A stretch of DNA of 64,000 nt from an uncultured Acidobacteriota bacterium (GTDB lineage: Bacteria; Acidobacteriota; Thermoanaerobaculia; Multivoradales; UBA5704). Position 1 is the first letter of the stretch. Every line of letters begins with the position of its first letter. Under the pieces are notes generated by a model. That model saw nothing but the letters and a program-made list of their open reading frames with translations, was not told the origin of the DNA and searched no databases. Positions 12,199-64,000 of this stretch are shown one piece after another. The position numbers and the translations under genes are program-made. Where the stretch lies: NCBI GenBank assembly GCA_963761805.1, contig CAVXIV010000014.1, forward strand, positions 362,692 through 426,691. Reading direction: 5' to 3'.

Positions 12199-12237
12199 GC
12201 GAGAATTGCGGCTATCATAAAGCTCCAGCGCTGCCGC

Positions 12238-13464: not shown

Positions 13465-13615
13465 TCCCCACGAAGTTCATCATGAACAGACTGTTTGATT
13501 CATTATACTTCGCTCTATCGTTCTCGTCAAACTCTGAGGTTAGCCACTCTGGCTCGTTAACTCTCTAGCGCAAAGTCTCCGGACTCTGAGCCGTCGTCAA
13601 CTTCTCCAGAGCAAG

Positions 13616-19026: not shown

Positions 19027-19122
19027 TGTGGTTCTCCCGGGGGGATCATATTCCGAACCACGCCCGCCCGGGCCGGGGTGGTGAGGGCCCCCCTCCACCT
19101 GCTAGATTCTCTCCATCCACCC

Positions 19123-20217
19123 ATGGCCGACCGCATCGAAGACCGCGCCCGGTTCGACCTTGTCCGCTACGCCAACGTGTGGGAGGACGCGGAGGTGCTG
19201 CGCTCGGCCCTCCAGCCGGCGCCGGGCAAGCGCGTCCTCTCCATCGCCTCGGCGGGGGACAACGCCTTCGCCCTCCTCGCCGCCGGGGCCGAGGTGGTGG
19301 CGGCCGACCTCTCCCCCGCCCAGATCGCCCTGGTCGAGCTCAAGCGCGCGGCCATCCGGCGGCTGGGGTTCGAGGATCTGCTCGCCTTCCTGGGACTCCG
19401 CAAAGGCCAGGACCGCCGCGCCGTCTACGAGCAACTCGAGCATGACCTTCCGTCACGCACGCGGGATTTCTGGCGCGAGCACCTGGACGAGATCGCGGAC
19501 GGGGTGGTCCATCACGGAAAGTTCGAGAGCTACTTCGAGCTCTTCCGCGAGCGCGTCCTCCCCCTGGTCCACCGGCGGAAGACCGTCCTCGCCCTCCTCG
19601 CGGAGAAGGACGAGGCCGCCCGCAAGGCGTTCTACGACCGCACCTGGAACAACCTGCGCTGGCGCCTCCTCTTCCGGATCTTCTTCAGCCGCTTCGCCAT
19701 GGGCAGGCTGGGGCGCGACCCGGAGTTCTTCCGCTACGTCGAGGGGTCGGTCGCCGAGCGCATCCTGAGCCGGACCGAGTACGCCTTGACCGCGCTGCCC
19801 ACTCACACCAATCCCTACGTGGAGTACATCCTCACAGGGAGCTTCAAACGCGCCCTCCCCCTCTACCTGCGGTCCGAGGTCTACCCGGACCTCCGGCGCA
19901 ACCTGGACCGCCTGACGCTCTTCGAAGGCCCGATCGACGAAGCCGCCCAGGCCCATCGGGGCGAAGGGTTCGACGGCTTCAACCTCTCGGACATCTTCGA
20001 GTACCTCGACGCCGATACCAGCGCCGCCGTCTACGGCCGTCTCCTGGAGACCGCCCGGCCGGGCGCCCGCTTCGCCTACTGGAACATGCTCGTGCCGCGC
20101 CACCTGGCCTCTGCCTTTCCCGGCCAGGTCCGCCCCTTGGACACCGAAGCCGGGAAGCTCTTCGACCAGGACCTGGCCTTCTTCTACAGCGCCTTCGTCC
20201 TGGAGGAGGTGATTTGA
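19123..20217 (+). CDS. BtaA-like protein (DUF3419; SAM:diacylglycerol 3-amino-3-carboxypropyl transferase family)
   Basis: The N-terminus YANVWEDAEVLRSAL..GKRVLSIASAGDNAFALL..VVAADLSPAQIALVELK matches my recollection of the BtaA/DUF3419 signature. Start chosen at ATG 19123. Confidence 0.6.
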   Translation: MADRIEDRARFDLVRYANVWEDAEVLRSALQPAPGKRVLSIASAGDNAFALLAAGAEVVAADLSPAQIALVELKRAAIRRLGFEDLLAFLGLRKGQDRRAVYEQLEHDLPSRTRDFWREHLDEIADGVVHHGKFESYFELFRERVLPLVHRRKTVLALLAEKDEAARKAFYDRTWNNLRWRLLFRIFFSRFAMGRLGRDPEFFRYVEGSVAERILSRTEYALTALPTHTNPYVEYILTGSFKRALPLYLRSEVYPDLRRNLDRLTLFEGPIDEAAQAHRGEGFDGFNLSDIFEYLDADTSAAVYGRLLETARPGARFAYWNMLVPRHLASAFPGQVRPLDTEAGKLFDQDLAFFYSAFVLEEVI

Positions 20218-21569
20218 TCTCCCCCGGCGATCTGCGCGGGGCGGCAATCCTGGCCGCGATCTTCCTCTCCCTGCTGGTGATCGCCGAGCTCTGGCGCCGG
20301 TTCGGGACGCCGAAGCCGGAGTACACGCGCAAGCTGGTCCACCTGGGAGGAGGCGTCGCCTGCCTGTTCTTCCCGTTCCTCGTCCGATCCCCTTGGGTGG
20401 TGCTGGCCCTGTCCCTGCCGCTGACGGGCCTGTTCGTGGCCGGCGGGAAATTCGGCTTCCTCCAGAGCCTGCACGGCGTGAAGCGAAAGAGCCGGGGCGC
20501 GGAGTACTACCCGCTCTCCGTCTTCCTGGTCTTCGTGATGACCCAGGGCCGGCCGTGGCTCTACCTCTCGGCTGTGCTCGTTCTCGCCGTGGGGGACGCC
20601 TTCGCCGCCCTCATCGGCAGCCGCTACGGGGTGATCCGCTACGAGGTGGAGGACGAGAAGAAGAGCCTGGAGGGCTCCCTGGTCTTCCTGGTCATCGCGT
20701 TCCTGGCGATCCACCTCCCCACCCTGCTGCTGACCGACCTCCCCCGCTCCGTCTGCGTGCTCGCCGCCCTGCTGGTGGCCGCGCTGGTGACCGGCTTCGA
20801 GGCGATCTCCCTGGAGGGAGCGGACAACCTCTTCGTCCCGCTCGCCGTGGTGGTGATCCTGGGCAAGATCACCACCAAGCCGCTCTCGGAGGTGATCTTC
20901 CAGAACCTCTCGCTGCTGGCCATCTGCGCTGGCGTGGGATTGGCCGTCTGGCGCTCGCGCTCGCTCAACGTGGGCGGCGCCATCACCTTCATCCTCTTCG
21001 CCTACGGCACCTGGTCGCTGGGATCGTGGATCTGGGCGCTGCCGGTCTTCGTGGGATTCCTGGGCTACCTCCTGGCCTGGAAGCGCTGGGCGCCGCCCGG
21101 GCACGCCTCGGGGATCAAGGTGCGGACTCTGGCGCGCGCCCTGCTGCCGCCGTTCGTCATGCTGATCCTGGCGAACAGCCTGGACGACTACCCCACCTGG
21201 TTCGCCCCCTACCTCGCCGCCATCGCCGCCGTCCTCGCCTTCAGCCTGGACACCGGCGTCTTCCGTCTGGAGCGGCGGCGGAGCTGGGCCTTGGGCGCGC
21301 TGGGGTTGGCGTTCCTCGGCACGGTCCTGGTGGTCGTCGGCCCCTGGATCGCCCTGCGCCGGGCGCCGCTGGAAACGGTGCTGGCGATCCTCGCCGCGAC
21401 CGCGGTGGTCTGCCTTATCAACTCCCTGCTGGAGCTGCGCGACCCCGAATTGCCCCGCAGCCGCGAGTGGACCGCCTGGCGCTTCCTCCTGAGCCTCGTG
21501 GCGGCCCTCGCGGTCTGGGGGTTGCAGGCGTTGGGGATGATCCCCGCGTGGGATCCGGGGTGGAGGTAG
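20214..21569 (+). CDS. Polytopic membrane protein, CTP-dependent CdsA/dolichol-kinase/phytol-kinase-like family
   Basis: 451 aa with more than 10 TM segments. Motif GDAFAALIGSRYG...KKSLEGSLVF. The TTG start overlaps the stop of the BtaA-like gene. Confidence 0.55.
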   Translation: MISPGDLRGAAILAAIFLSLLVIAELWRRFGTPKPEYTRKLVHLGGGVACLFFPFLVRSPWVVLALSLPLTGLFVAGGKFGFLQSLHGVKRKSRGAEYYPLSVFLVFVMTQGRPWLYLSAVLVLAVGDAFAALIGSRYGVIRYEVEDEKKSLEGSLVFLVIAFLAIHLPTLLLTDLPRSVCVLAALLVAALVTGFEAISLEGADNLFVPLAVVVILGKITTKPLSEVIFQNLSLLAICAGVGLAVWRSRSLNVGGAITFILFAYGTWSLGSWIWALPVFVGFLGYLLAWKRWAPPGHASGIKVRTLARALLPPFVMLILANSLDDYPTWFAPYLAAIAAVLAFSLDTGVFRLERRRSWALGALGLAFLGTVLVVVGPWIALRRAPLETVLAILAATAVVCLINSLLELRDPELPRSREWTAWRFLLSLVAALAVWGLQALGMIPAWDPGWR

Positions 21570-24304: not shown

Positions 24305-27019
24305 CTACGAGTCTTCCGACACCAGCACCGTCCCCGTCGCGCCGTCCATCGTGACGACCTGCCCCGTCTTCAGCGTGCCCACCAGCCCGGCGATGCCCAC
24401 GATAGTGGGAATTCCCATCTCGCGGGCCACGATGGCGGAGTGGGAGAGGATGCTGCCGCGCTCGATCAGCAGGCCCGAAACTGAAGGGTAGAGCGGCACC
24501 CAGCCGGGATCGGTCCGCTCGGCGACCAGGATCTCGCCATCGAGGCGGGAGTCCTCGGTGGGGCTCCGCAGGACCTTGACCGGCCCGGTGACGATCCCCG
24601 GGCAGCAGCCGGTGCCACGCAGGACTCCCGGCTCCGTGGGCTCGGCCATACGGGGACGGCCCCGGTAAAGGTTGCGGTGGTAGGGCAGTCCGAAGGTCTC
24701 GAAGCGATCGGCGGGCGGGTCCATGCGGCGGTAACCGTCGAATTCTTCGCGGCGGAGGGCGGCGAGCCCGCGCAGGTTGGCGGTCACCGCGCGGCCCTTG
24801 ACGTAGTCCCAGACCTCGTCGAGAGTGAGATAGAAGATGTCGTCGGCGTGGCCGAGGAGCCCCGCCTCGGAGAAGTCCTCCCCCACCGCCCGCAGCATCT
24901 CGCGCAGCAGGCCGTAGATGCGCGTGCGGGCGAAACGGAGGTTCTCCCGGTTCTTCACGCCCAGGCGGGCGTTCTCCAGCACCCGGCGGAAGATCCATCT
25001 CCGGTGGGCGCCCCGGATGGCGGCAAAGGCTTTCTCTTCGGCGTCGCGGCGGATGCGCTGCTCGCGCTTCTCCATAGCCGCCGTATCCAGCGCCGACGGG
25101 TCTTCCATCGCCAGATAGTTGCGGAGGATCTGATAGAGGAAGGCCGGGCGATCTCTCAGAGAAAGCTCCTCCAGCTTCAGCTCGTTGGGGCAGCGGAAGC
25201 CGTAGAGGTCGAGATAGCGGGCGATGCCGGCGGCGAAGTCCGTGAAGCGCGGGTCCGCCGGGATCTCGCGGGCGAGATCTTCGGGCGGGCGCTCCATGAG
25301 CAGCCGCCTCAACTCCGGCTGTTGCCTCGCCTCGGCGGCCATCCGCATCAGAAGCTTGGCGGGCTCGGTGCTCTCGATGCCCCCCTCGCCGCAGATCAGA
25401 TCGTTCTGGAGCGAGCCGGACTCGTCGCCGCACCAGGAGGCGCAGAGCTTCTTGAGCGTGCCGTAGAAGACCATCACGAAGAAATCGTTGACGATCGGCG
25501 CCTTCCATTCCCAGAGGAGCTTCTCCTCCATCTCGCGGTAGAGGGACGCCAGCTCATGCGGCGGCATGGCGCGGAAGTCCAAGGCGGACCAGCGCTCGTA
25601 ATGGGTGCGGAAATGATTCTGGAAATCGCCGACGATGCGGCGAATGTGGAAGAAGTTGCGAGTCGAGCGCCCTACCAGCCGCAGCAGGGCCGGCAGCTCG
25701 ACGGTGTAGCGCTGAAGGCTGGAAGCCGGCGCCGCGGGTTTCTCCTCCGTTTGATCGGCGATACTCGCGGGCTCGCGCACGCCCATCATCGATTCCATGA
25801 AGCTCTTGTTGTAGTTGAAACCGGGGAAGAGTCGGACGAGGCGGTACCAGTTGAAAAGGTTGTAATAGACCTGACCGCGGAACAATCCGAGCATGTTCTC
25901 GAACACCTCGCGGTTGGCCTTCACCGTGCGCGCGTCGATCCCCATGACGTCGGCGAAAACGTGATAGACGATGGTGTACGCGCGGCGGATGAAGCTGAAC
26001 GTCATGGGCGAGGTCACGCCCGAATAGCTCTCGATGATGTTGGAGTTGTCCCAGACCCGCCGGTTGCCCACGGCGGGTCCCAGCTCCTCGACGGTGGTGA
26101 CGGGCCGGGCCTGGAGAAGAAAGGACCGGCCCTCGGCGTCCACGGCGAATTCGAGGTCCTGCGGACGGCGGTAATGCCGTTCGACCGCGAGCCCCAGACG
26201 CGCGAGGGTCTGAATCTCGTCGGCGGACAGGCTGCTCCGCTCCCGCAGATCTTCGGGCACGGCAAGGCGGATCAGCCCGCCCCCGGCCTCGCGATCGAGG
26301 ATGAGCTGCTCCGATTTGACGGCGACGGATTCCGAGACCTCCAGCGTCTCCTTGTCGACGATGTAGGTATCCGCGTCCAGGCCAGCGCTCACCAGCCCCT
26401 CCCCCGCCCCCCAGAGCGAGCTGATCACGACCTCGTGGACGCTGCCGTTGTTGGGATTGGCGGTGAAGATCACGCCGCTGGTCCGCGCTTCCACCATGCG
26501 CTGGACGACCACAGCCACGGCGATGCTCTCCAAGGGGATGCCCTTCGCTCGACGGTAGGCCAGGGCGCGCTCGTTGTAGGCCGAGGCCCAGACGCGGCGC
26601 ACCGCTTCCAGCAGGCTCTCCCGGCCGCGCACGAAGAGGAAGCTGTCGTGCAGCCCGGCGAAGGACTCCCCCGCCGCGTCCTCCCCCGCCGCCGAAGAGC
26701 GGACCGCCACGTACGCGTCCTCACCGATGCGGGCGGCATGCGCGGCGGCGATTTCCTCCTCAAGCCCGGGCGGCAGGGGGGCGGCGAGAATCCACTCCCG
26801 GATCTCGGACGCGGACCGCTCCTCCGCCAGACGGGCGGCGATGCGCCCGCGGAGGCTGCCAGTCGCCTGTTCGAAGGCGGCGGTGGTGACCGCGTACCAG
26901 GGCGGGACGGGCAGGCCGAGGGATTCGAGGATGGCAAGGTTGGCGGCCTTGCCACCGAGGCCCTCACGACGTGACCGCGAGGGATGCCAGACGAGCGGGA
27001 TGTCAGGGAGCATGGGCAC
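24305..27019 (-). CDS. PEP-utilizing phosphotransferase with rifampicin-phosphotransferase-like three-domain architecture
   Basis: N-terminal PPDK_N/ATP-grasp region (GGKAANLAILE, VAVRSSAAGED). Central helical domain (WDNSNIIESYSGVTSPMTFSF). C-terminal swivel His domain (ERGSILSHSAIVAREMGIPTIVG). There is no PEP/pyruvate TIM-barrel domain, so it is not a canonical PpsA. Confidence 0.7.
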   Translation of the reverse strand: MPMLPDIPLVWHPSRSRREGLGGKAANLAILESLGLPVPPWYAVTTAAFEQATGSLRGRIAARLAEERSASEIREWILAAPLPPGLEEEIAAAHAARIGEDAYVAVRSSAAGEDAAGESFAGLHDSFLFVRGRESLLEAVRRVWASAYNERALAYRRAKGIPLESIAVAVVVQRMVEARTSGVIFTANPNNGSVHEVVISSLWGAGEGLVSAGLDADTYIVDKETLEVSESVAVKSEQLILDREAGGGLIRLAVPEDLRERSSLSADEIQTLARLGLAVERHYRRPQDLEFAVDAEGRSFLLQARPVTTVEELGPAVGNRRVWDNSNIIESYSGVTSPMTFSFIRRAYTIVYHVFADVMGIDARTVKANREVFENMLGLFRGQVYYNLFNWYRLVRLFPGFNYNKSFMESMMGVREPASIADQTEEKPAAPASSLQRYTVELPALLRLVGRSTRNFFHIRRIVGDFQNHFRTHYERWSALDFRAMPPHELASLYREMEEKLLWEWKAPIVNDFFVMVFYGTLKKLCASWCGDESGSLQNDLICGEGGIESTEPAKLLMRMAAEARQQPELRRLLMERPPEDLAREIPADPRFTDFAAGIARYLDLYGFRCPNELKLEELSLRDRPAFLYQILRNYLAMEDPSALDTAAMEKREQRIRRDAEEKAFAAIRGAHRRWIFRRVLENARLGVKNRENLRFARTRIYGLLREMLRAVGEDFSEAGLLGHADDIFYLTLDEVWDYVKGRAVTANLRGLAALRREEFDGYRRMDPPADRFETFGLPYHRNLYRGRPRMAEPTEPGVLRGTGCCPGIVTGPVKVLRSPTEDSRLDGEILVAERTDPGWVPLYPSVSGLLIERGSILSHSAIVAREMGIPTIVGIAGLVGTLKTGQVVTMDGATGTVLVSEDS

Positions 27020-27101
27020 GGTAGGAGGAATCTATAGGAAGTCGCTATCCTTGGCGCGCGCCGAGCGCTTACGCTCCGCAGACGAGATCAGGAGATTCCG
27101 T

Positions 27102-27263
27102 ATGAAGAAATCGCCCAAGAAACTCACGTTGGCCAAGGAGACCCTGCTTCACCTGGAGAGCGAATCCCTCGATAAGGCATTCGGCGGCGCTTGGGTGAAG
27201 ACCGTGGACGCGACCGCTTGCGTGACGAATTGCGCGGGCTGCCCCAGCTATCGAATCTGCTGA
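27102..27263 (+). CDS. Candidate RiPP/bacteriocin precursor A1 (53 aa, double-glycine leader, Cys/Thr-rich core)
   Basis: GGAG lies 8 nt upstream. Sequence MKKSPKKLTLAKETLLHLESESLDKAFGG|AWVKTVDATACVTNCAGCPSYRIC. It is hidden at the end of shadow ORF 26727..27263. Confidence 0.6.
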   Translation: MKKSPKKLTLAKETLLHLESESLDKAFGGAWVKTVDATACVTNCAGCPSYRIC

Positions 27264-27277
27264 AACCAAGGAGATGC

Positions 27278-27454
27278 CATGAAGAGATCCCCCAAGAAGC
27301 TCAAGCTGGCCAAGGAGACCCTTCTCAATCTGGAGAGCGGGCCCCTGGAGAAGGTTTACGGTGGTGTCGCGACTGAAAGGTCGGTGTGCGTCACCATCTG
27401 CGCGACGAACTGCAACGTCACAGCCTGCGCGACTGCCTGCCCTGGCTGCGCCTA
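27278..27454 (+). CDS. Candidate RiPP/bacteriocin precursor A2 (58 aa), paralogue of A1
   Basis: AAGGAG lies 5 nt upstream. Sequence MKRSPKKLKLAKETLLNLESGPLEKVYGG|VATERSVCVTICATNCNVTACATACPGCA. It is not in the ORF track. The leader is 21/29 identical to A1 and the core diverges. Confidence 0.6.
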
Positions 27455-27469
27455 GCCTGATGCTCTCTC

Positions 27470-27497
27470 CGGTCCGTGAGCTCTAGCGCTCGCGGAC
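27470..27497. terminator. Hairpin between the convergent precursor and UbiA genes
   Basis: ggtccgtgagc-tctagc-gctcgcggacc forms an 11-bp stem (one G-U pair), 15 nt after the A2 stop and 3 nt before the UbiA stop. Confidence 0.45.
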
Positions 27498-27500
27498 CGC

Positions 27501-28454
27501 TCAAATCCGTACCCCATATCTCGCCAGGATCGCGACCGTCAAAATCACATCGAACGCGATGATGTACATCCCCGCGTAGGTCTCCATCCGCTTGGCGGTC
27601 TTGCGGTTGGTATCGAACCGGTACTGGAAGAAGCCGATCAGACAGAGCAGGAAGAGCGCCACCAGGGCGGCATAGAACCAGGTGGACAGCCCCAGGTGCC
27701 AACCCACCAGGGCTACCAGGGCGGTGTCGATCACCCGGATCAGCAGGACCAGGTACGCGGCCCCGTACGTCCCGAAGATGCGCGTGTACGTCTCCACGCC
27801 CTCGATCTCGTCTTCGGGGGCGCGGATCTTCCGCGAGACTTCCCAGTTGAAGGTCACGAAGAAGCCCACCCAGGCATACATCCAGAACCAGAACGGCGCC
27901 TCCCAGGGCCACTGCCCCGTGGTGAAGCTGAAGACCATCAGCGAGAGCAGGGGCATCACCAGCAGGTGGCTCACGGCGTAGACCAGGAAGTGCCGCTTGA
28001 GCCAGTCGCGGACGAAGAACTCCTTCAGCATCAGGAAGGAGAAGACGAACGCCGCCAGCCAGGCCACGAAGGACGCCCGGCCGCCCAGGACGGAGAGGAC
28101 GATCTCCGTGGCGATGGCGATCCCGCCGAGAATCTTGAGGTCGCGCAGAGTGATGACGCCGCTCTGGAGGACGCGCTGGGGATGGTGGCGCAGGTCTTCG
28201 GCGTAGTCCTTGTGCTCGTCGAAGACCCGCAGGTGGAAGAAGAAACAGAACAGGGTCACGGCTCCGAGGAGGGTCGAGAGGTCGTAATGCATCGGCTCCC
28301 CCGGCTGGGTCAGGGCGCGGGCGAGGAACTGATTCGAGGAGTAATAGGCCGCGATCAGCACCCCGTGGCCCAGCAGCGGGAAGCGCTCCGCCAGATAGGC
28401 GGAGAGACGCCGGGGGAACGGCGATTCGCGGGTAAGGGCGGGGGCCGTGCTCAT
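27501..28454 (-). CDS. UbiA-superfamily prenyltransferase (divergent)
   Basis: 317 aa with about 8-9 TM segments. Asp-rich motifs FDEHKDYAED and APEDEIEGVETY. ATGA overlap with the upstream ligase. Confidence 0.65.
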   Translation of the reverse strand: MSTAPALTRESPFPRRLSAYLAERFPLLGHGVLIAAYYSSNQFLARALTQPGEPMHYDLSTLLGAVTLFCFFFHLRVFDEHKDYAEDLRHHPQRVLQSGVITLRDLKILGGIAIATEIVLSVLGGRASFVAWLAAFVFSFLMLKEFFVRDWLKRHFLVYAVSHLLVMPLLSLMVFSFTTGQWPWEAPFWFWMYAWVGFFVTFNWEVSRKIRAPEDEIEGVETYTRIFGTYGAAYLVLLIRVIDTALVALVGWHLGLSTWFYAALVALFLLCLIGFFQYRFDTNRKTAKRMETYAGMYIIAFDVILTVAILARYGVRI

Positions 28455-30016
28455 CCCTTCAGCAGCCGTTCGCGCAGGCGCGGATAGTCGATCTTGCTGT
28501 TGTGACGGGGATCGACCGGCATCGGATCGGCGGTGAGGCGGATCTCGTCCACCTCCAGACCGGCGGTCCGCAGGCGTTCGGCCACTTCCCGCTCGATCCC
28601 CTCCTCGTCGGTCTCGAGGACGACGACGACGCGCTCCCCCAGCGCCGGGTCCGGAAGGCCCACGGCGGCGGCGCGGCGGATGCGCGGGTCCTCCGCGCAG
28701 GCGGCCTGCTCGACGAGCTGCGGATGGACCAGCCCGCCGGCGCGGCGGATCGTGGAGTGGACCCGTCCCGCCAGCCAGAAGCGCCCCTCGCGGTCGAAGG
28801 AGCCGGTGTCCCCCATGCGGTGCCAGACGGCCTCGCCGTCCGCGATCTTGTTCTCGCGCACGGCCCGGGGGTTGCGGTAGTAGTCCCGGCAGACATGCTC
28901 GCCCGTGACCACCAGCTCTCCGATCTCGCCGGCCGGAAGCTCCCAGTCCGCCCAGCCTCCGTCTCCCAGCCGGATGGAAGCGCCATGGATGCGCACGATC
29001 TTCGCCCGCACCCGCTCCACGGGCCGGCCGGCGCAGAAGCCGGGGGTCAGCGGCCGGTCCTGGTTGATGGCCTCCAGCCGCTCCTCGGCGGTGAGGTGAG
29101 CCACGGGCTCGGCTTCGGTGGAGCCATAGGCCACCAGGATCTCGGTCCCGGGAAAAGCGCGCCGCCAGTCGCGGAGCTGGGCGTCGGCGACGGGAGCGCC
29201 GCCGGTCAGGGCGCGGCGCAGACCGGGCACGTCCCCGTGATGGCGGCTCACCTCGCCGGCGAGGCGGTCGAAGAAGGGGGGCGAAGCCGTGCAGGTGGTG
29301 ACGCCATGGCGCCGCATCTGGGCGAGGACGCGGGCGCCGTCCACCTGGTCCACGCGGCGGAAGTCCATGTCCGGCACCACGGAGGGGACTCCCGTGGCCA
29401 GGTTGTTGAGGGCGAACACCGGGAACATGGGCATGTCGACGTCGCCGTCCTCGGCCGAAAACTCGGCGGCCAGGGCGCGATGCTGGGCGAGAAGGAAGCC
29501 GTGGGTGCGGTTGGCGCCCTTGGGCTCGCCGGAGGAGCCGCTGGTGAAGGTGATGAGCGCCGGATCGTCCGGTGCGGCCGGATGGACCTCCCCGTCGCCT
29601 TCCGACTGCTCCAACTCGTCCAGGGCGCAGCCCGCCGGCAGCGGCCCCAGACGCCAGCCCGTGGTGACGGAGAAAGGGATGGACCGCAGGGGCCGCGAGA
29701 GCAGCCGCAGCAGGTGGCTCTTGGGAATGCCGATCCAGGCCCGGGGCTCCGCGAAAGCGGCGAAGGCGGCGATCTGCCGGCGGCCGATCCAGGGGTCGAC
29801 GAAGACCGCCACCGCTCCCATGTGCAGCACGGCCAGCATGGCCACGTAGAGATCGATCGACATCGGGATCATGACCACGGCCCGGTCCCCCGGCGCGAGG
29901 CCCAGACCGCGAAGCCCGGCCGCGGCGCGAGAGACGCGGTCCCAGAGATCGCCGAAGGTGATGGAGCCGTCGTCCCCTGTGATCAGCGCCGGCCGCGCCG
30001 GATGGCGGGCAGCCAT
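28451..30016 (-). CDS. Adenylate-forming enzyme (acyl-CoA synthetase/fatty-acyl-AMP ligase-like)
   Basis: Motifs TFTSGSSGEPKG, YGSTE and GDTGSFDREGRFWLAGR. Start set at ATG 30016. The listed start at 30241 adds 75 Arg/Pro-rich residues that overlap the amidohydrolase. The true start may be non-canonical, slightly upstream of 30016. Confidence 0.75.
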   Translation of the reverse strand: MAARHPARPALITGDDGSITFGDLWDRVSRAAAGLRGLGLAPGDRAVVMIPMSIDLYVAMLAVLHMGAVAVFVDPWIGRRQIAAFAAFAEPRAWIGIPKSHLLRLLSRPLRSIPFSVTTGWRLGPLPAGCALDELEQSEGDGEVHPAAPDDPALITFTSGSSGEPKGANRTHGFLLAQHRALAAEFSAEDGDVDMPMFPVFALNNLATGVPSVVPDMDFRRVDQVDGARVLAQMRRHGVTTCTASPPFFDRLAGEVSRHHGDVPGLRRALTGGAPVADAQLRDWRRAFPGTEILVAYGSTEAEPVAHLTAEERLEAINQDRPLTPGFCAGRPVERVRAKIVRIHGASIRLGDGGWADWELPAGEIGELVVTGEHVCRDYYRNPRAVRENKIADGEAVWHRMGDTGSFDREGRFWLAGRVHSTIRRAGGLVHPQLVEQAACAEDPRIRRAAAVGLPDPALGERVVVVLETDEEGIEREVAERLRTAGLEVDEIRLTADPMPVDPRHNSKIDYPRLRERLLKG

Positions 30017-30045
30017 CTGGCGGAGGACCTCGAGGACGTTGGAGG

Positions 30046-31404
30046 TCAGAACGACACTCCCGACCGCCGGATCAGCGCCGCCAGGCAGCGGGCCGATTCG
30101 CGGTAGATCTCTCCGAGGTCGAGATGCGCGAGCCGGCCTTCCTCGACGAGGAGGCGGCCGTCGGCCACGACGTGGCGGACGGCGGCGCGGGAGGTCCCGA
30201 AGGCCACGAGGTCGTGCGGGTCCGCCTGAGGCGCGGCCCACAGCTCGGGGCGCGCGGTCGTGAGCACGACGAGGTCCGCGCGCCTGCCGGGCTCGATGGT
30301 GCCGATCTCATCCTGGAGACCGATGGCACGCGCCCCTTCGCTGGTGGCGAGGCGCAGGGCGTCGAGGCCGGAGAAGGCGTCGGGGCCGTGCTTGACCTTC
30401 TGGAGCAGGGCGGCCAGGCGCAGCTCCTCGAAGTTGTCGAGATGGTTGCTGCACGCCGCGCCGTCGCACCCGATGCCGACCGGCACGCCGGCGCGGCGGA
30501 GGGCGAGGAGGTCGGCCACGCCGGAGCCCAGCTTCAGGTTGGAGCTGGGGCAATGGACCACGCTGAGCTGGCCTTCGCGCGCCCGGCCCAGGTGCTCGGC
30601 GGTGATCCAGACGCCGTGGGCGAGGCGCAGGTCGGTCGCCAGGATGCCCTGGTCGGAGAAGTATTCGATCTCGTCGCGCCCACCCTTCAGCTCGCGCACG
30701 GCGAGCGTCTCGTCCCGCTGCTCCAGCGCATGGGTGTGGACCGGCCAGCCGCGGCGCAGCGAGAGGTCGCGGATCCCCTCCCAGAGCGGATCGGAGCAGG
30801 TGAGGATGAAACGGGGATTGAGCGCGTAGCGCAGACGTCCCCCGGCCGCGCCGTCGAAGCGCTGGCCCAGGGCCTCGGTCTCGGCGAGCGCCGTGTCGGT
30901 CGTCAGGCGCATGGCGGCCGGCAGCGCTTCGCCGCTGTCCATCAGACATTGGCCGGCGAAGGCGCGCAGACCGGAGTCCTCGATCGCCTGGAGCAGGCCG
31001 CGCGCGCCGGGTCCGATGCCGATGTCCTGGATCGTGGTGGTGCCGCCGAGGAGGCATTCGGCGGCGCCGAGCATGCCGCACCAGTAGGCGCTCTCGTCGT
31101 CGTGGGCGGCTTCGAGGGGCCAGATGCGCTCGCGCAGCCAGGCGAGCAGACGCCGCCCTTCGGCGAGGCCGCGGAAGAAGGTCTGCCCCAGATGGAGATG
31201 CCCCTGGATGAGCCCCGGCAGCACGAGGCAGTCAGTGACGTCGAGCACGCGGGTCCCCGGCGGCGGCTCGGGCACGCCGAGCGAAGCGATGCGGCCGTCG
31301 CGCACCAGGAGGTCCGCGCCGCGCAGCACGGTGGCGCCGGCGTCCAGGGTGAGGATCGTGCCTCCGCGCAGGAGCAGGGGGGGGTCGGCTTGGTGGAATT
31401 GCAC
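30046..31404 (-). CDS. Amidohydrolase of the TRZ/ATZ-MtaD-guanine deaminase branch
   Basis: 452 aa with PGLIQGHLHLGQ (HxH), VHTHALE and GCDGAACSN. It lies in the same transcription direction as the ligase and 29 nt upstream of it. Confidence 0.7.
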   Translation of the reverse strand: MQFHQADPPLLLRGGTILTLDAGATVLRGADLLVRDGRIASLGVPEPPPGTRVLDVTDCLVLPGLIQGHLHLGQTFFRGLAEGRRLLAWLRERIWPLEAAHDDESAYWCGMLGAAECLLGGTTTIQDIGIGPGARGLLQAIEDSGLRAFAGQCLMDSGEALPAAMRLTTDTALAETEALGQRFDGAAGGRLRYALNPRFILTCSDPLWEGIRDLSLRRGWPVHTHALEQRDETLAVRELKGGRDEIEYFSDQGILATDLRLAHGVWITAEHLGRAREGQLSVVHCPSSNLKLGSGVADLLALRRAGVPVGIGCDGAACSNHLDNFEELRLAALLQKVKHGPDAFSGLDALRLATSEGARAIGLQDEIGTIEPGRRADLVVLTTARPELWAAPQADPHDLVAFGTSRAAVRHVVADGRLLVEEGRLAHLDLGEIYRESARCLAALIRRSGVSF

Positions 31405-35835: not shown

Positions 35836-38496
35836 ATGCCGTCTGAGCCGCACCCGCACCCCCTGATCCGCTCCACACCCCTCACGGGGATCTCCGCGGC
35901 TCTGTTTCGGGCGCTGCTCCCGTACGCCGAGCGCGAAGAGGTGCTCGAAGACCTCGCGGCGGAGCACGCGGACCGCGCGGCGTCCCAGGGACGTCTCCTC
36001 GCCCGCCTCTGGCTCTGGCGTCAGCTCCTCGGCTCCCTGCCCTCGCTCGCGCGCCGTAGCTGGTGGCGCGGGTGGACGGGCTTCGAGCCGCGCGCCAATC
36101 GAATGCAACCCGGAGGAATCATCGTGGAAAGCTGGATCATTGATTTGAGGTATTCCGCGCGCCGGCTCGCCAGCCGTCCGACGTACGTGTTGCTCGCGGT
36201 CCTCACCCTGGCGCTCGGCGCCGGCGGCACGGCCGCCATCTTCAGCGTCGTCCGGGCGCTGTTGCTGGATCCGCTTCCCGTGGCCCGGGAGTCCGCGGTC
36301 GGAGTGCTGTGGAGCACGAGCAGTTGGACCGAAGAGGAGTTCCTGCACTTCCGACCCGACTGGCCCGGCTTCCGGAGCATGGCGGCCTACAGGTCGCTGG
36401 ATGCCACGCTCGAAACGCCCGGCGAGCCGCTGCGCCTGATCCGTGGCATCTCCTCCTCCGCCGAGCTTTTCGACGTGCTCGGCAAGGGAGCGATGCTCGG
36501 GCGGACCTTCCAGAAGGGCGACGACCTTCCCAACGCCGAGCCTGTGGCGGTGCTGAGCCACGATCTCTGGCAGGAGCTTGGCGGCAACGCCTCGATCATC
36601 GGCCGCCAGCTCAACCTGGGCGGCTCGACGCGGACCGTTATAGGCGTGATGCCGCGCGGCTTCTGGTTTCCCAGCCCGGCGGTCCGGATCTGGACCGCGA
36701 CGCCCCTGAGCCCGGAGAGACAGTCCGGGGTCTACACCCTGATCGGGCGAGTCGCCGAAAACGCGCGGATCGACCACATGGAGGGGCCGCTCGGCGCCTT
36801 CACGGCGGCGCTCGGACGGCGGTTCGAGTATCCGCCGCAGTGGGATAAGACCAAGTCCCCGTCGATCACTCCGCTGCGCGAGTTCCTGGTGGGAGATGTG
36901 CGGCCGAGCCTCCTCGCGACACTGGCCGCCATGGTCCTGATCCTGCTCATGGCGTGCGTCAACGTCGCCGCGCTGATGCTCGGCCAGGTAGGTGGCCGCA
37001 GCTCCGAGCTGGCCGTGCGCACCGCCCTGGGGGCCGGGCGCCAGCGGCTGCTCCAACAGATCGTCATCGAGTCGCTGCTGATCGGCGCGCTCGCGGGCGC
37101 CGTGGGCGCCCTGTTCGCGGCGGGGGGGTTCCGGCTACTGGTCCGGTCGCTGCCGCTCGGCGAGCTGGCCGAGAGCGCACGGCTCGACTGGACCCTGTTC
37201 TGGGCCGCCACCCTCGTCGCCCTGCTGGCCGCGGCGGCGGTCGCCGTCATCCCGGGTATCGCGCTCTGGCGGGGCAACCTGCGGGGCTCGATGGCCACCG
37301 TCCGGAGCGGTGGGATCTCGGGCCGCGGCGACCGGCTGGAAGGCGGGCTGGTGATCGCCCAGATCGCGCTCGCCGTGCTGCTCGCGGCCGGGGCGGGACT
37401 GCTGATCCGCAGCGTCGACCAGCTCCGCCGGATTGATCCCGGCCTGCGGCCGGACCAGGTGGCGGTCCTCGACGTCACCATGCCCTCGCTGCTCTCCGGC
37501 GACGACCGGCGACGGGCCGTGCTCGACCTCCTGCCGCGGCTCCAGGTCCTCCCCGGCGTCCGGGCCGCGGCGGCGGTGCAGCGGCTGCCGCTCCGGGGCG
37601 GCGGCGACAACTGGGGCATCGAAATCGAGGGCAAGCCGGCGCGCGAGACCAGCACCACGTTCTTCCGCGTCGTGACGCACGACTACTTCCAGGCCCTCGG
37701 CGTGCCCGTGCGCCGCGGACGCGGGTTCCTGCCCACCGACCGCGAAAACACGGAGCGCGTCGTAGTCATCAACGAGGCACTGGCCGCGAAATACTTCCCG
37801 GGCGAGGACCCGATCGGCCATGTCCTCAATACCGGCTTCGAAGGCGGCGAGCGCATCGTCGGCGTGGTAGGGAACGTGGCGGAAGGGAATCTGACCGACG
37901 AGGCCGCTCCCGCGCGGTACATGCTCTTCGATCAGGTGCCTATGTACTGGCAGCAGGTCGCGTACGTCCTGGCGGGGGCGCGCCCCGAGGACGTGCCGCG
38001 GCTGCTCCAGGACGGCCGCGAAGCCGTGCGGCGGGAGGGACGGAACCTCGCTCTGGAGGGGACGGCCGCCATGGCGTCGGTCTTCGACGAAGCGGTCGGC
38101 GCGCCGGGGCAACTGGCCACCCTGCTCTCGCTGCTCGCGGCCCTCGCCCTGCTGCTGGGCGCGGTGGGCGTCTACGGTATGATTTCGCACTTTGTCTCGC
38201 GCCGGACGCGGGATTACGTGATCCGCATGACCCTGGGCCTGACTCCCGGACGGGTGGTGTCACACGTGATGGGCCGGGGCCTTCTCCTGGTCGGTCTCGG
38301 CAGCGCCATCGGCATCGCGGCGGCGCTGATGCTGACGCGCCTGCTCTCGTCGCTGCTCTACGGCGTGACCGCTACCGATCCCCAGGCGTTGACGGGCGCG
38401 GTGCTCGCCCTGCTGGCGGTGGGAGCGCTGGCCGCCTACATCCCGGCCCAGCGGGCGAGCCGGACCGATCCCGCCCTGGTGCTGAGGCAGCAATAG
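35836..38496 (+). CDS. ADOP-type duplicated MacB/FtsX-like ABC transporter permease
   Basis: 886 aa. An N-terminal cytoplasmic extension is followed by [44 protein letters not shown]. Two MacB-like periplasmic plus FtsX halves. Confidence 0.8.
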
Positions 38497-38499
38497 CGT

Positions 38500-53916: not shown

Positions 53917-53930
53917 GCGGGGAACTGCGA

Positions 53931-61904: not shown

Positions 61905-63374
61905 ATGGATTCAGAACGCCACCGTCAATATCTTGAAGCCCTGGCGCGCCGCGCCATGGAAGAAAAGGGATTACAGTCCGAATTCTCGACGGCGGCCCTG
62001 AAGGAGGCGGAGGGCCTCTCTCCCGCCGGCCCCGACGGTCATGGAGTCCGCGACCTGCGCGGCCTTCCCTGGTGCTCCATCGACAACGACGACACCCGCG
62101 ACCTCGACCAGCTCACCGTGGCCGAGCCGCTGGGCGGCGGCGCCACCCGGGTGAGGGTCGCCGTCGCCGACGTGGACGTCCTGGTGGACCAGGGCTCGGC
62201 CATCGACGAGCACGCCCGGACCAACACCACCTCGGTCTACACCGTCGCCCGGGTCTTCCACATGCTCCCCGAGCGTCTGTCCACGGGTCTGACCTCCCTC
62301 AACGAGGGCGAGGACCGCCGCGCTCTCGTGGTGGAGTTCGTGGTCCAGGAGGACGGTGCGACGGCGGACGAGGACGTCTACCCCGCCGTGGTCCACAACC
62401 GCGCCAAGCTGACCTACACCGCCCTGGCGGCCTGGCTGGATGGCGCCGGCCCCCTGCCGGAAGGCATGGCCGGCGTCCCGGATCTCACGGAGCAGATCCG
62501 CCTCCAGGACGCCGCCGCCCAGCGCCTGCGGCGGCTCCGCCACGAGCGGGGCGCCCTCGACCTGAGGCGCAACGACGTCCACCCGGTCCTGCGCGGCAAC
62601 CGGGTGGAAACCCTCCAGAACGACGACAGCGACCGGGCCAAGGAGCTGATCCAGGACTTCATGATCACGGCCAACTCCACCATGGCCCGTTTCCTGGAGT
62701 CGCGGCGGCTGCCGTCGCTGCGCCGCATCGTCCGCCAGCCGCGCCGCTGGGACCGCATCGTGGACCTCGCCCGCCAGACCGGAGACCGGCTGCCTTCGGA
62801 GGCGGACTCCCAGGCCCTGTCGGAGTTCCTGGCGCGGCGGCGGGAGGCCGCGCCCGACGCCTATCCCGAGCTCTCTCTGGCGGTGGTCAAGCTCATCGGC
62901 TCCGGCGAGTACGTGGCCGACCTGCCGGAGGACCCCGCGCCCGGCCATTTCGGGCTGGCCGTGGAGGACTACACCCACGCCACCGCCCCCAACCGGCGCT
63001 ATCCCGACCTCGTCACCCACCGCATCCTCAAGGCGGCCCTGGCCGGGCGCCCCACGCCCTACGGCTCCGACGAGCTCCGGGAGCTGGCCCGTCACTGCAC
63101 CGGGCAGGAAAACAACGCCCAGAAGGTGGAGCGCCAGGTCCGCAAGTCCGCGGCGGCCCTGCTGCTGGAGGACCGCCTCGGCGACACCTTCCGCGCCGTG
63201 GTGACCGGCGCGTCCGAGAAAGGCACCTGGGTGCGCATCTTCCACCCCCCCGTCGAGGGCAGGCTGGAGCGCGGCTTCCAGGGGCTCGACGTCGGCGACT
63301 GCCTGACCGTCCGCCTCATCGACCTCGACGTCGAGCGCGGATTCATCGATTTCGCCCGGGAGAGACATGGCTAA
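61905..63374 (+). CDS. RNB-domain exoribonuclease (RNase II/R family) with a C-terminal S1-like domain
   Basis: CSIDNDDTRDLDQL, HFGLA...YTHATAPNRRYPDLVTHR, and a C-terminal beta-rich segment. Confidence 0.8.
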   Translation: MDSERHRQYLEALARRAMEEKGLQSEFSTAALKEAEGLSPAGPDGHGVRDLRGLPWCSIDNDDTRDLDQLTVAEPLGGGATRVRVAVADVDVLVDQGSAIDEHARTNTTSVYTVARVFHMLPERLSTGLTSLNEGEDRRALVVEFVVQEDGATADEDVYPAVVHNRAKLTYTALAAWLDGAGPLPEGMAGVPDLTEQIRLQDAAAQRLRRLRHERGALDLRRNDVHPVLRGNRVETLQNDDSDRAKELIQDFMITANSTMARFLESRRLPSLRRIVRQPRRWDRIVDLARQTGDRLPSEADSQALSEFLARRREAAPDAYPELSLAVVKLIGSGEYVADLPEDPAPGHFGLAVEDYTHATAPNRRYPDLVTHRILKAALAGRPTPYGSDELRELARHCTGQENNAQKVERQVRKSAAALLLEDRLGDTFRAVVTGASEKGTWVRIFHPPVEGRLERGFQGLDVGDCLTVRLIDLDVERGFIDFARERHG

Positions 63375-64000
63375 GAAGAGTCCGGAACGCCCCTACGCTC
63401 CAGCGGAGTTCTTCGCTTTCCGCACCCCCCTGCTGCCCTACGAAGAGCTGGAAGCCTGGAGCGCGGGACTGGAAGCGCCGGCGGCCGCCGGCGATCCGGA
63501 ACGCCTGGAAGAGGCGGTGGCCGCCGACCGCCAGCGGCTCCGCGCCCGGCTGGCCGCCCTGGCCGAGCGGCCGGAGATCCGCGAGGCGGTCTTCCTCGCC
63601 TCCCCGTCCCTCCATGAAAGCCTGGCGGCCTGGCAGAAGGACCCTGGAAGCAAGAAGGGCCTGCGGGCCGAGAGGGCGCTGGTGCGCTACTTCTACCGCA
63701 TGGCCGCCCGCGCCACCCCCTTCGGCCTCTTCTCGGGCTGCTCGGTGGGCCGGGTCGACCTCCAGCCCGGCTCCTCCACCCGCATCGCCGTGGCCCCCCG
63801 CTCCGCCTACGAGCGGCACACCCGGCTCGACATGGACTACCTCTTCGCCCTCTGCGAGGACCTGGTCCGCGACCCCGCCGTCCGCGAGACGCTGGTCTGG
63901 CGCCCCAACTCCAGCCTCTACCGCGCCGCCGGCCGGCTGCGCTACGCCGAGGCGCGGCTGGAGGGCAAGGCGCGCTCCCACCACCTGGTGGCCGTGGATT
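63367..64000 (+). CDS. Lanthipeptide/thiopeptide-type dehydratase, LanB N-terminal domain (partial; continues beyond the window)
   Basis: MAKKSPERPYAPAEFFAFRTPLLPYEEL...YFYRMAARATPFGLFSGCSVGRV... The F-x-x-RTPLLP and ATPFGLFSG motifs are characteristic of Lant_dehydr_N. The start overlaps the RNB gene stop by 8 nt. It is not in the ORF track because it has no stop within the window. Confidence 0.7.
   Translation, partial: MAKKSPERPYAPAEFFAFRTPLLPYEELEAWSAGLEAPAAAGDPERLEEAVAADRQRLRARLAALAERPEIREAVFLASPSLHESLAAWQKDPGSKKGLRAERALVRYFYRMAARATPFGLFSGCSVGRVDLQPGSSTRIAVAPRSAYERHTRLDMDYLFALCEDLVRDPAVRETLVWRPNSSLYRAAGRLRYAEARLEGKARSHHLVAVD

What the first reader, a model, noticed from the sequence alone, without database searches (positions are those of the whole stretch)
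27102..27454. Two tandem unlisted small ORFs with a conserved double-glycine leader and hypervariable Cys/Thr-rich cores (RiPP or bacteriocin precursor pair)
Seen directly: two adjacent + strand ORFs of 53 and 58 aa, each with its own Shine-Dalgarno (GGAG, AAGGAG). The first 29 residues are 21/29 identical (MK+SPKKL.LAKETLL.LES..L.K..GG) and end in GG. The residues after GG are unrelated in sequence but share composition. In both cores the number of Ser+Thr equals the number of Cys (A1 4/4, A2 6/6). Cys is repeatedly preceded by Thr in T-x-C spacing (TAC, TNC, TIC, TNC, TAC, TAC). A conserved leader with divergent cores and balanced Ser/Thr:Cys counts is the classic signature of lanthipeptide-type or other thioether RiPP precursors. 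A KKL.L.KETL...GG leader also resembles peptides exported by C39-peptidase ABC transporters. One ORF is buried in a shadow ORF and the other is below the track's size cutoff, so automated annotation would miss both.
Basis: partly seen in the sequence, partly recalled or inferred. Interest (0 to 1): 0.8.

Follow-up and report, generated by a model that had tools for sequence, protein, structure and literature searches.

The report
Orphan class I lanthipeptide precursor pair
Two small neighbouring genes encode precursors of lanthipeptide-type (thioether-bridged) secreted peptides; they belong to a known kind, but sit 36 kb from the only modification gene seen on this DNA, antisense inside an unrelated operon.

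Summary
Two + strand ORFs, A1 (27102-27263, 53 aa) and A2 (27279-27455, 58 aa), each have an AGGAG-type ribosome-binding site. Their 29-residue leaders are 21/29 identical and end in GG, and their cores are Cys/Thr-rich. Both are real genes: dN/dS is 0.1-0.3 against orthologues, with more than 40 homologues in Thermoanaerobaculia.

The leader fits the published class I lanthipeptide motif LxLxKx5L...GG. It matches NCBIfam NF038153 just under cutoff. An HMM built only from leaders next to LanC or LanB finds exactly these two ORFs among the window's 900 open segments of 30 aa or more (E 1e-7).

In other loci the same leader lies inside complete HlyD / C39-ABC / precursor / LanC / LanB clusters. 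The first 211 codons of a LanB dehydratase lie at 63367-63999, about 36 kb downstream and cut by the window end.

Three points need correcting. The A2 core is conserved among orthologues, not hypervariable, with a (C-x-T-x)n pattern. Public gene callers already call both ORFs. The adjacent AMP-ligase, UbiA and PEP-synthase-like genes form an older operon that exists without peptides in outgroups, and the peptides were inserted antisense into it.

Verdict: new members of a known kind, encoded far from their enzymes. Thioether modification remains unproven.

The parts
27102..27263 (+). A1 precursor gene, 53 aa. Leader is residues 1-29 (27102-27188) and core is AWVKTVDATACVTNCAGCPSYRIC (27189-27260).
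   Evidence: NF038153 gives 21.1 bits, E 2.5e-4. Custom leader HMM gives E 1.8e-7. dN/dS is 0.12 against L008. Its 90% cluster has 11 members.
27279..27455 (+). A2 precursor gene, 58 aa. Leader is residues 1-29 (27279-27365) and core is VATERSVCVTICATNCNVTACATACPGCA (27366-27452).
   Evidence: NF038153 gives 19.4 bits, E 9e-4. Custom leader HMM gives E 8.6e-8. dN/dS is 0.11-0.23. 43 homologues were found.
27090..27094 (+). Shine-Dalgarno AGGAG of A1, 7 nt before the ATG.
   Evidence: Read from the sequence.
27268..27273 (+). Shine-Dalgarno AAGGAG of A2, 5 nt before the ATG. The A1-A2 spacer is only 15 nt, so the two genes are probably co-transcribed.
   Evidence: Read from the sequence.
27058..27101 (+). 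5' element upstream of A1 (..CGCTTACGCTCCGCAGACGAGATCAGGAGATTCCGT). It is related to GATTCCGCxCCGCA..ACAAGGGAGACC, which lies upstream of every subfamily copy, including L009 in a different genomic context.
   Evidence: inspection only; no statistics.
27470..27499 (+). 12-bp G+C-rich hairpin after the A2 stop, between the convergent A2 and UbiA genes. Probably a terminator; it has no U tract.
   Evidence: -25.1 kcal/mol, z -3.66.
63367..63999 (+). N-terminal 211 codons of a LanB-type lanthipeptide dehydratase, cut by the window end. Candidate trans-acting dehydratase for A1 and A2.
   Evidence: tblastn shows 56-59% identity to Pfam-verified LanB, E 1e-56. The ORF start is at 63367. PF04738 gives E 2.3e-34, 119 bits.
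24305..27019 (-). Context, not part of the system: PEP-synthase/rifampicin-phosphotransferase-like gene, last gene of the host operon, divergent from A1.
27501..30241 (-). Context, not part of the system: UbiA prenyltransferase (27501-28454) and AMP-dependent ligase (28451-30241), the upstream genes of the same operon, convergent with A2.

Best explanation
A1 and A2 are two co-transcribed genes for class I-type lanthipeptide precursors (LanA) in a Thermoanaerobaculia (Acidobacteriota) genome. The 29-residue leader carries the LxLxKx5L recognition motif and a double-glycine cleavage site, with hydrophobic residues at -4, -7, -12 and -15. The inferred pathway is as follows. A LanB dehydratase encoded elsewhere on the chromosome (one starts at 63367, 36 kb away) dehydrates Ser/Thr of the core. 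A LanC cyclase adds the Cys thiols to form (methyl)lanthionine rings. A C39-peptidase ABC transporter cuts after GG and exports the peptide. What is shown: the genes are real and under purifying selection, the leader is homologous to leaders that sit in LanC/LanB/PCAT clusters, and a LanB gene is on the same DNA. What is inferred: that this LanB, together with an unseen LanC and transporter, acts on A1 and A2, and that thioethers are formed. The pair is an orphan. It was inserted antisense into the gap between UbiA and the PEP-synthase-like gene of a pre-existing operon, and has been inherited there in a subclade with 1-3 copies.
For: Gene reality: dN/dS is 0.1-0.3 in leader and core, there are 43 homologues, and both exact sequences are called in public data.

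Leader identity: NF038153 'class I lanthipeptide' is the only NCBIfam hit, at 21.1 and 19.4 bits against a cutoff of 22. That lies within the 18.1-38.4 bit range of peptides physically linked to LanB/LanC. An HMM built from 17 LanB/C-linked leaders picks only A2 (8.6e-8) and A1 (1.8e-7) out of 900 open segments, and the next best hit has E=2. The motif LxLxKx5L followed by GG matches Walker et al. 2020 (PMC7268733).

Physical linkage of the leader family: LanC with 1-2 such peptides 40-60 nt downstream occurs in L026, L038, L039 and L041. Of 70 LanC loci with enough downstream sequence, 17 have one within 700 nt downstream, and about 15 more have one just upstream. Full clusters exist, for example L088 with HlyD, C39-ABC, precursor, LanC and LanB.

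Same-DNA dehydratase: window 63367-63999 matches PF04738, E 2.3e-34.

Core composition: S/T count is at least the Cys count in 44/44 subfamily members.

Dispersed organisation is normal in this lineage. Of 27 genome loci found with the leader, only 2 have LanC within 10 kb. Of 26 LanC loci of 12 kb or more, 14 lack LanB and PCAT.
Against: No LanC, LanM or C39-ABC gene is present in the 64 kb. LanB is 36 kb away, separated by about 30 housekeeping genes, and only its N-terminus is visible. NF038153 scores are just below the curated cutoff. The periodic C-x-T-x core would imply unusual i,i+2 or interleaved rings, for which I know of no precedent (own knowledge). I did not find that exact periodicity in LanB/C-linked cores, although L116 comes close. 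No expression or mass-spectrometry data exist. A GG leader alone is also compatible with unmodified peptides.
Confidence: 0.62

Rival explanations
1. A1 and A2 are unmodified, or merely disulfide-bonded, double-glycine-leader peptides. They would be class II bacteriocin-like toxins or signals, cut and exported by a C39-ABC transporter with no dehydration or thioether formation.
For: GG at -2/-1 and hydrophobic residues at -4, -7, -12 and -15 are all a PCAT needs (sequence; own knowledge of PCAT recognition). No cyclase or transporter is in the window. Both cores have an even number of Cys (4 and 6). Most leader-family genes lie far from any Lan enzyme.
Against: The N-terminal LxLxKx5L block is kept under purifying selection (leader dN/dS 0.13-0.28). 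By analogy with the FNLD box (inference), that block is a dehydratase-recognition element rather than a transporter one. Thr two residues before Cys is conserved. LanB is on the same contig. The only family-model hit is a lanthipeptide leader.
Confidence: 0.22
2. The peptides are substrates of the flanking enzymes and so define a new RiPP class. The PEP-synthase/Rph-like protein would phosphorylate Ser/Thr for elimination, UbiA would prenylate, and the AMP-ligase would acylate.
For: The subfamily is always found in the UbiA | PEP-synthase-like gap in the contigs I could inspect. In L010 it stays next to the PEP-synthase-like gene even where UbiA was not found within the locus. Phosphorylation followed by elimination is how class III-V lanthipeptides are dehydrated (own knowledge).
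Against: Outgroups at 71-74% identity (L035, L036, L037, L042) have the same co-directional operon: an unknown ~530 aa gene, an unknown ~360 aa gene, AMP-ligase, UbiA and the PEP-synthase-like gene. There UbiA and the PEP-synthase-like gene overlap or abut, and no peptide is present. The peptides are antisense to the operon. The enzyme is 70-90% conserved whether or not peptides are present. An A1-type peptide also occurs in a different context (L009). All relatives are close, so synteny is weak evidence.
Confidence: 0.04
3. The cores are modified by a different chemistry encoded elsewhere. Candidates are radical-SAM thioethers (ranthipeptide or sactipeptide-like, TIGR04149-type) or thiazole formation, using the same GG leader only for export.
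For: Related peptides give weak TIGR04149 hits at 15-22 bits. One LanB/C-linked peptide also hits a Cys-repeat radical-SAM target model weakly. Thermoanaerobaculia are known to make thiazoles on Cys-rich lanthipeptide precursors (PMC13083261).
Against: A1 and A2 themselves give no TIGR04149 hit at E<=1. No radical-SAM gene is in the window. The neighbour search of 27 leader loci flagged one radical-SAM protein, about 6 kb from its peptide. The ThaA/TheA leaders are of the mersacidin type and unrelated.
Confidence: 0.08
4. The ORFs are non-functional: chance ORFs or decaying gene copies in an intergenic spacer.
For: No consensus sigma-70 promoter was found. No expression data exist.
Against: Purifying selection with saturated synonymous change (dS up to 1.5, dN/dS 0.1-0.3). 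The ORFs are intact in many genomes. Ribosome-binding sites are intact and a terminator hairpin follows.
Confidence: 0.02

Closest known systems
Class I lanthipeptide precursors with the LxLxKx5L...GG leader (Bacteroidetes type; pinensin family; NCBIfam NF038153 lant_leader_L1a; Walker et al. 2020, PMC7268733)
   Same: The leader has the same architecture: a basic N-terminus, LxLxKx5L and a terminal GG. The core is rich in Ser, Thr and Cys. Lineage relatives with the same leader sit with LanB, LanC and a C39-ABC transporter.
   Different: The host phylum is Acidobacteriota (Thermoanaerobaculia). The pair is not in a cluster; LanB is 36 kb away and no LanC or transporter is visible. NF038153 scores are 0.9 and 2.6 bits under the cutoff. 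The core has a (C-x-T-x)n periodicity.
Prochlorosins and cyanotins (class II, ProcM; many precursors dispersed in the genome)
   Same: They work alike: many precursor genes share one conserved GG leader but have diverse cores, they are scattered far from the synthetase, and they are presumably matured in trans.
   Different: The prochlorosin leader is of the Nif11 type and the enzyme is LanM, in cyanobacteria. Here the leader is LxLxKx5L and the enzymes are separate LanB and LanC. The window peptides are not members of that family.
Double-glycine leader peptides of PCAT (C39-ABC) exporters, i.e. class II bacteriocins and quorum signals (LahT study, PMC6363468)
   Same: GG at the cleavage site, hydrophobic residues at -4, -7, -12 and -15, and a short leader of about 29 residues.
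   Different: Those peptides are usually unmodified and encoded next to their transporter. Here an additional N-terminal LxLxK block is shared with LanB substrates.
ThaA/TheA of Thermoanaerobaculia (LanM plus GMC oxidase, thiazole-lanthipeptides; PMC13083261)
   Same: The same bacterial class, with Cys-rich cores.
   Different: The leader is unrelated (mersacidin type, MKKQQVIRAWKDEEY...). The synthetase is class II, and the genes are clustered.

Membership tests
Class I lanthipeptide precursor, LxLxKx5L-GG leader type (NF038153) | Leader matches the NF038153 model at or above the curated cutoff of 22 bits | tested here: inconclusive
   A1 scores 21.1 bits (E 2.5e-4) and A2 19.4 bits (E 9e-4), both over the full model 1-32. 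The orthologue P0019 scores 23.4 and is named by NCBI. Peptides linked to LanB/C score 18.1-38.4.
Class I lanthipeptide precursor, LxLxKx5L-GG leader type (NF038153) | LxLxKx5L motif and a leader ending in Gly-Gly | tested here: met
   A1 reads L8-T-L10-A-K12-ETLLH-L18...G28G29 and A2 reads L8-K-L10-A-K12-ETLLN-L18...G28G29. The motif is quoted from PMC7268733.
Class I lanthipeptide precursor, LxLxKx5L-GG leader type (NF038153) | Leader is homologous to leaders encoded beside LanB/LanC | tested here: met
   An HMM built from 17 LanB/C-linked leaders finds only A2 (8.6e-8) and A1 (1.8e-7) in the window.
Class I lanthipeptide precursor, LxLxKx5L-GG leader type (NF038153) | Core contains Cys, with at least as many Ser/Thr | tested here: met
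   The counts are 4/4 for A1 and 6/6 for A2. S/T is at least equal to Cys in 44/44 subfamily members.
Class I lanthipeptide precursor, LxLxKx5L-GG leader type (NF038153) | LanB dehydratase encoded in the same genome | tested here: met
   Window 63367-63999 matches PF04738 at E 2.3e-34 and is 56-59% identical to LanB of L088 and L099. Only the first 211 residues are visible, so intactness is unknown.
Class I lanthipeptide precursor, LxLxKx5L-GG leader type (NF038153) | LanB and LanC adjacent to the precursor (a gene cluster) | tested here: not met
   The nearest Lan gene is 36 kb away. There is no LanC in the 64 kb.
Class I lanthipeptide precursor, LxLxKx5L-GG leader type (NF038153) | LanC cyclase encoded in the same genome | not testable with these tools
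   Only 64 kb of the genome is held. LanC is abundant in the lineage (1773 hits), but none could be assigned to this assembly.
Class I lanthipeptide precursor, LxLxKx5L-GG leader type (NF038153) | Mature peptide carries dehydro residues and (methyl)lanthionine | not testable with these tools
   This needs mass spectrometry.
Double-glycine leader substrates of C39-ABC (PCAT) exporters | GG/GA at -2/-1 with hydrophobic residues at -4, -7, -12 and -15 | tested here: met
   A1 has A26, L23, L18 and L15; A2 has V26, L23, L18 and L15. Homologues end in GG or GA.
Double-glycine leader substrates of C39-ABC (PCAT) exporters | C39-peptidase ABC transporter encoded nearby | tested here: not met
   None is present in the window. 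One is present in related clusters L088 and L099 (PF03412).
TIGR04149 radical-SAM-modified GG peptides | Match to TIGR04149 and a radical-SAM maturase nearby | tested here: not met
   A1 and A2 give no hit at E<=1. No radical-SAM gene is in the window.

The most novel reading that the evidence does not exclude
Thermoanaerobaculia may run a dispersed, prochlorosin-like class I lanthipeptide system. One or a few LanB and stand-alone LanC enzymes, encoded at separate loci, would mature a library of orphan precursors that share the LxLxKx5L-GG leader and are scattered through the chromosome, each travelling with its own short upstream element. The window's subfamily, with its (C-x-T-x)n core, would then give an unprecedented ladder of very small or interleaved methyllanthionine rings.
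Probability: 0.3. Interest if true: 0.65.

Novelty: new member of a known kind. Interest (0 to 1): 0.42.

Why it matters
Cluster-based genome mining looks for precursors within a few genes of a LanC-domain protein; RODEO, as used by Walker et al. 2020, searches seven genes on either side. Precursors such as A1 and A2, 36 kb from LanB with no cyclase in sight, escape that search. In this lineage most genes with this leader appear to be of that kind, so the lanthipeptide repertoire of soil Acidobacteriota is probably under-counted. If one dehydratase and cyclase set does mature many dispersed precursors, it would be a class I counterpart of the promiscuous ProcM system, which is useful for peptide engineering. 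The repetitive C-x-T-x core would also be a new ring topology worth solving. None of this changes what is known about how lanthipeptides are made.

Tried and rejected
1. Neighbouring enzymes as maturases (PEP-synthase-like, UbiA, AMP-ligase). Rejected because the operon exists intact, without peptides, in L035, L036, L037 and L042. The peptides are antisense insertions into it.

2. Recurrent neighbours of the 27 genome loci that carry the leader. The large neighbouring genes tested in 9 of these loci turned out to be unrelated proteins: M13 and S9 peptidases, SNF2 helicases, CHAT/STAND proteins, a beta-lactamase, Hsp70 and a TonB receptor. tblastn found LanC within 10 kb only in L026 and L032, and no LanB or C39-domain match in any of them.

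3. ThaA/TheA of Thermoanaerobaculia as relatives. Their leaders are unrelated.

4. Rfam scan of the window. No matches.

5. Sigma-70 promoter scan. Nothing found, and the scan is uninformative for this phylum.

6. Retrieving the source contig through P0044 or the exact A1 sequence, to see what lies beyond the window end. This failed: no record in one case and no DNA in the other.

7. Looking for LanC on the same contigs through the 'longest_contig' values. No match to the peptide-bearing contigs I tracked among the 120 hits listed out of 1773, so this was inconclusive.

8. My first Pfam survey missed LanB because the ORF listing omits ORFs that run off the window end. A later tblastn control found it.

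Full report
**1. The observation**

The two ORFs are present as described.
- A1 spans 27102-27263 and encodes MKKSPKKLTLAKETLLHLESESLDKAFGG | AWVKTVDATACVTNCAGCPSYRIC.
- A2 spans 27279-27455 and encodes MKRSPKKLKLAKETLLNLESGPLEKVYGG | VATERSVCVTICATNCNVTACATACPGCA.
- AGGAG (27090-27094) and AAGGAG (27268-27273) precede the two ATG codons at 7 and 5 nt.
- The leaders are 21/29 identical. The Ser+Thr and Cys counts are 4/4 and 6/6.
- Only 15 nt separate the genes. A 12-bp G+C-rich hairpin (27470-27499; -25 kcal/mol, z -3.7) follows A2.
- GC3 is 0.78 and 0.81.
- The 178-aa ORF that contains A1 (26727-27263) is A1's own reading frame running open upstream across the PEP-synthase-like gene on the other strand, not a separate gene.

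**2. They are real genes**

- A search of 5.8 billion proteins found 43 homologues of 55-89 aa. All came from metagenomes or from MAGs (metagenome-assembled genomes) of Thermoanaerobaculia.
- The alignment shows a conserved leader, MKKxPKKLKLAKETLLNLExESLENVLG[AG]. It also shows a conserved core, (A)TERSVCVTICATNC..TxC.TxC..C.
- Pairwise dN/dS against orthologues is 0.11-0.34 with synonymous sites near saturation. For the A2 core against L002 there are 12 synonymous and 1 non-synonymous changes.
- So the A2 core is not hypervariable. A1 has its own orthologues in L008 and L009, and only the paralogues differ from each other.
- Both exact sequences are already called as unnamed proteins on a 736,183-bp public contig. 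One orthologue, P0019, is named 'class I lanthipeptide' by NCBI. The claim that annotation would miss both ORFs therefore fails.

**3. The neighbourhood is misleading**

In every long contig that carries this subfamily, the peptides lie between two genes. One is a ~905-aa gene with PPDK_N, Rph_4th and PEP-utilizers domains (window 24305-27019, -). The other is a UbiA prenyltransferase (27501-28454, -), which is followed by an AMP-dependent ligase (28451-30241, -).

All three enzyme genes are on the minus strand, so they form one operon and the peptide genes are antisense within it. In outgroups whose PEP-synthase-like protein is 71-74% identical (L035 from Holophagales, L036, L037, L042), the operon has this order:
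- an unknown gene of ~530 aa,
- an unknown gene of ~360 aa,
- the AMP-ligase,
- UbiA,
- the PEP-synthase-like gene.

In these outgroups UbiA and the last gene overlap or abut, and there is no peptide gene. The enzyme is 70-90% identical across more than 100 relatives, whether or not peptides are present. The operon therefore predates the peptides and does not depend on them. The peptides are a later insertion that was inherited in a subclade, with 1-3 copies.

**4. What the leader says**

- NCBIfam gives a single hit for each peptide: NF038153 lant_leader_L1a ('class I lanthipeptide'). The scores are 21.1 and 19.4 bits against a cutoff of 22.
- Walker et al. 2020 (PMC7268733) describe class I LanAs of Bacteroidetes that carry LxLxKx5L in place of FxLD. 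Their leaders end in GG, and a C39 protease is encoded in the cluster.
- A1 and A2 fit this motif exactly: L8-x-L10-x-K12-x5-L18...G28G29.
- Hydrophobic residues at -4, -7, -12 and -15 fit the double-glycine export signal. That positional rule is from my own knowledge of PCAT leaders.

**5. Linking the leader to enzymes**

A scan of 185,579 species genomes with the leader found 27 loci, all in Acidobacteriota. Several genomes have two or three separate sites.

I tested the large neighbouring genes in 9 of these loci and all were unrelated proteins. tblastn found LanC within 10 kb only in L026 and L032, and no LanB or C39-domain match in any locus.

The L026 case provided the lead. A LanC-like gene (PF05147, E 3e-33) lies immediately upstream of a leader-family peptide there. 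Starting from that LanC, I found the following.
- It has 1773 homologues, mostly from Thermoanaerobaculia. The zinc ligands are retained in 36-37 of 42 sequences sampled.
- Three further LanC loci each have one or two peptides with the same leader 40-60 nt downstream.
- Among 80 metagenomic LanC loci, a strict pattern finds a leader-family peptide within 700 nt downstream in 17 of the 70 loci with enough sequence. About 15 more have one just upstream.
- Clustering the neighbours and running Pfam identified LanB (PF04738 plus PF14028), C39-ABC transporters (PF03412) and HlyD.
- L088 is a complete cluster: HlyD, PCAT, ABC, precursor, LanC and LanB.
- Of 26 LanC loci of 12 kb or more, 12 carry LanB and 14 carry LanC alone.
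- NF038153 scores of these enzyme-linked peptides are 18.1-38.4 bits, which brackets the window's values.
- An HMM built from 17 enzyme-linked leaders, none containing 'AKETL', was run against all 900 open segments of 30 aa or more in the window. It hits only A2 (E 8.6e-8) and A1 (E 1.8e-7); the next best hit has E=2.

**6. A dehydratase on the same DNA**

My Pfam survey of the window found no Lan gene. However, the ORF listing omits ORFs that run off the window end.

- A tblastn control with Pfam-verified LanB proteins hit 63367-63999 (+) at 56-59% identity, E 1e-56.
- The ORF starts at ATG 63367, overlaps the stop codon of the RNase II gene, and runs off the window end.
- Pfam confirms Lant_dehydr_N at E 2.3e-34 and 119 bits.
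- The genome therefore encodes a class I dehydratase about 36 kb from A1 and A2. About 30 housekeeping genes lie between them, covering purine catabolism, riboflavin synthesis, FtsY, AroB and AspRS.
- The leader HMM finds no other precursor in the window.
- LanC and a transporter were not seen and may lie beyond position 64000 or elsewhere in the genome.

**7. Mechanism**

The best-supported reading is that A1 and A2 are orphan class I LanA genes matured in trans. The steps are LanB dehydration, LanC cyclisation, then cleavage after GG and export by a C39-ABC transporter.
- Shown: the genes are real, the leader is homologous to enzyme-linked leaders, the leader family is physically linked to LanB, LanC and PCAT genes elsewhere, and LanB is on the same DNA.
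- Inferred: that these enzymes accept A1 and A2, and that rings form.

The subfamily core has a period-4 pattern, C-x-T-x. S/T occupies position -2 of Cys in 80% of cases and position +2 in 73%. This pattern is absent from the wider family, and it would imply unusually small or interleaved rings.

Rival explanations and my confidence in each:
- Unmodified or disulfide-only GG-leader peptides: 0.22.
- Another chemistry, such as radical-SAM thioethers or thiazoles: 0.08.
- Substrates of the flanking operon: 0.04.
- Non-functional ORFs: 0.02.

**8. Novelty**

The kind is known: class I lanthipeptides with an LxLxKx5L-GG leader, covered by an existing NCBIfam model. What is new here is the following.
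- The host lineage.
- The dispersed organisation: orphan precursors, LanB without an adjacent precursor, and stand-alone LanC-plus-precursor modules.
- The repetitive core.
- The antisense insertion into an operon.

I rate it a new member of a known kind, with moderate interest.

Noticed in passing
L026 8613-10159; L038 10001-11521; L039 10001-11716; L041 10001-11563; also L043, L044, L048, L049, L051, L054, L056: These loci hold stand-alone LanC genes followed at 40-60 nt by one or two precursors with the LxLx[KR]ETL-GG leader. No LanB or C39-ABC gene lies within about 10 kb. This applies to 14 of the 26 LanC loci of 12 kb or more. How dehydration is supplied there is unexplained.
   Followed up: partly
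window 19078-21569 and 24305-30241; L035 2674-10730; L037; L042: This is a conserved Acidobacteriota operon of unknown function. It runs: unknown ~530 aa gene, GNAT-like ~360 aa gene, AMP-ligase, UbiA prenyltransferase, and a PEP-synthase/rifampicin-phosphotransferase-like gene. In the window's clade a DUF3419 gene plus an unknown 451-aa gene lie nearby. The last enzyme is 70-90% conserved across the class.
   Followed up: partly
L017 4516-7497 and 9992; L030 7230-9791 and 10001: A leader-family peptide with a Trp- and Cys-rich core (..CTDWQTCWGTCQSCDTCPPWC..) lies about 2.5 kb (L017) and about 0.2 kb (L030) downstream of a ~990-aa protein with a tryptophan halogenase domain (PF04820, E 2e-111) in two independent loci. 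This may be a halogenated lanthipeptide.
   Followed up: no
70 nt upstream of the peptide genes in L013, L015, L020 and L033; in L018, L022, L025 and L029; and in window 27058-27101, L008, L009 and L010: Orphan precursor genes in unrelated genomic contexts share short upstream elements. One is GCTAGAATGCCCGGGCC.. followed by a hairpin, another is GCCAATCAAGG, and the third is GATTCCGCxCCGCA..ACAAGGGAGACC. This suggests that each gene moves or duplicates together with its promoter and 5' UTR. It was seen by eye only.
   Followed up: no
window 61905-63374 and 63367-63999: The LanB start codon overlaps the last codons of an RNase II (RNB domain) gene on the same strand. The dehydratase therefore appears to be co-transcribed with a housekeeping gene rather than with a precursor or LanC upstream.
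   Followed up: partly
window 52427-55702 (-): A single 1091-aa ORF combines HAMP and HD_5 (HD-GYP-like) domains with C-terminal SRP54_N and SRP54 GTPase (FtsY-type) domains. This is an unusual fusion, unless the true start codon is internal.
   Followed up: no
window 10001-14000: This stretch has low G+C (0.55-0.56 against about 0.69 elsewhere). It holds two minus-strand ORFs (10921-12198, 12238-13464) with only weak IucA/IucC and TPR hits. It may be a horizontally acquired segment.
   Followed up: no
window 1864-6600 (+): A 1578-aa ORF with GC1 of 0.92, GC3 of 0.68 and no Pfam hit. It has the composition of an antisense shadow ORF, yet no long ORF was listed on the opposite strand. What is encoded here is unresolved.
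   Followed up: no
window 6429-8786 (+); 35836-38847 (+): One ORF is an ArsD-ArsA fusion. Further along, a duplicated MacB_PCD/FtsX permease is followed by a PadR regulator; from memory, this pairing is typical of Acidobacteria.
   Followed up: no
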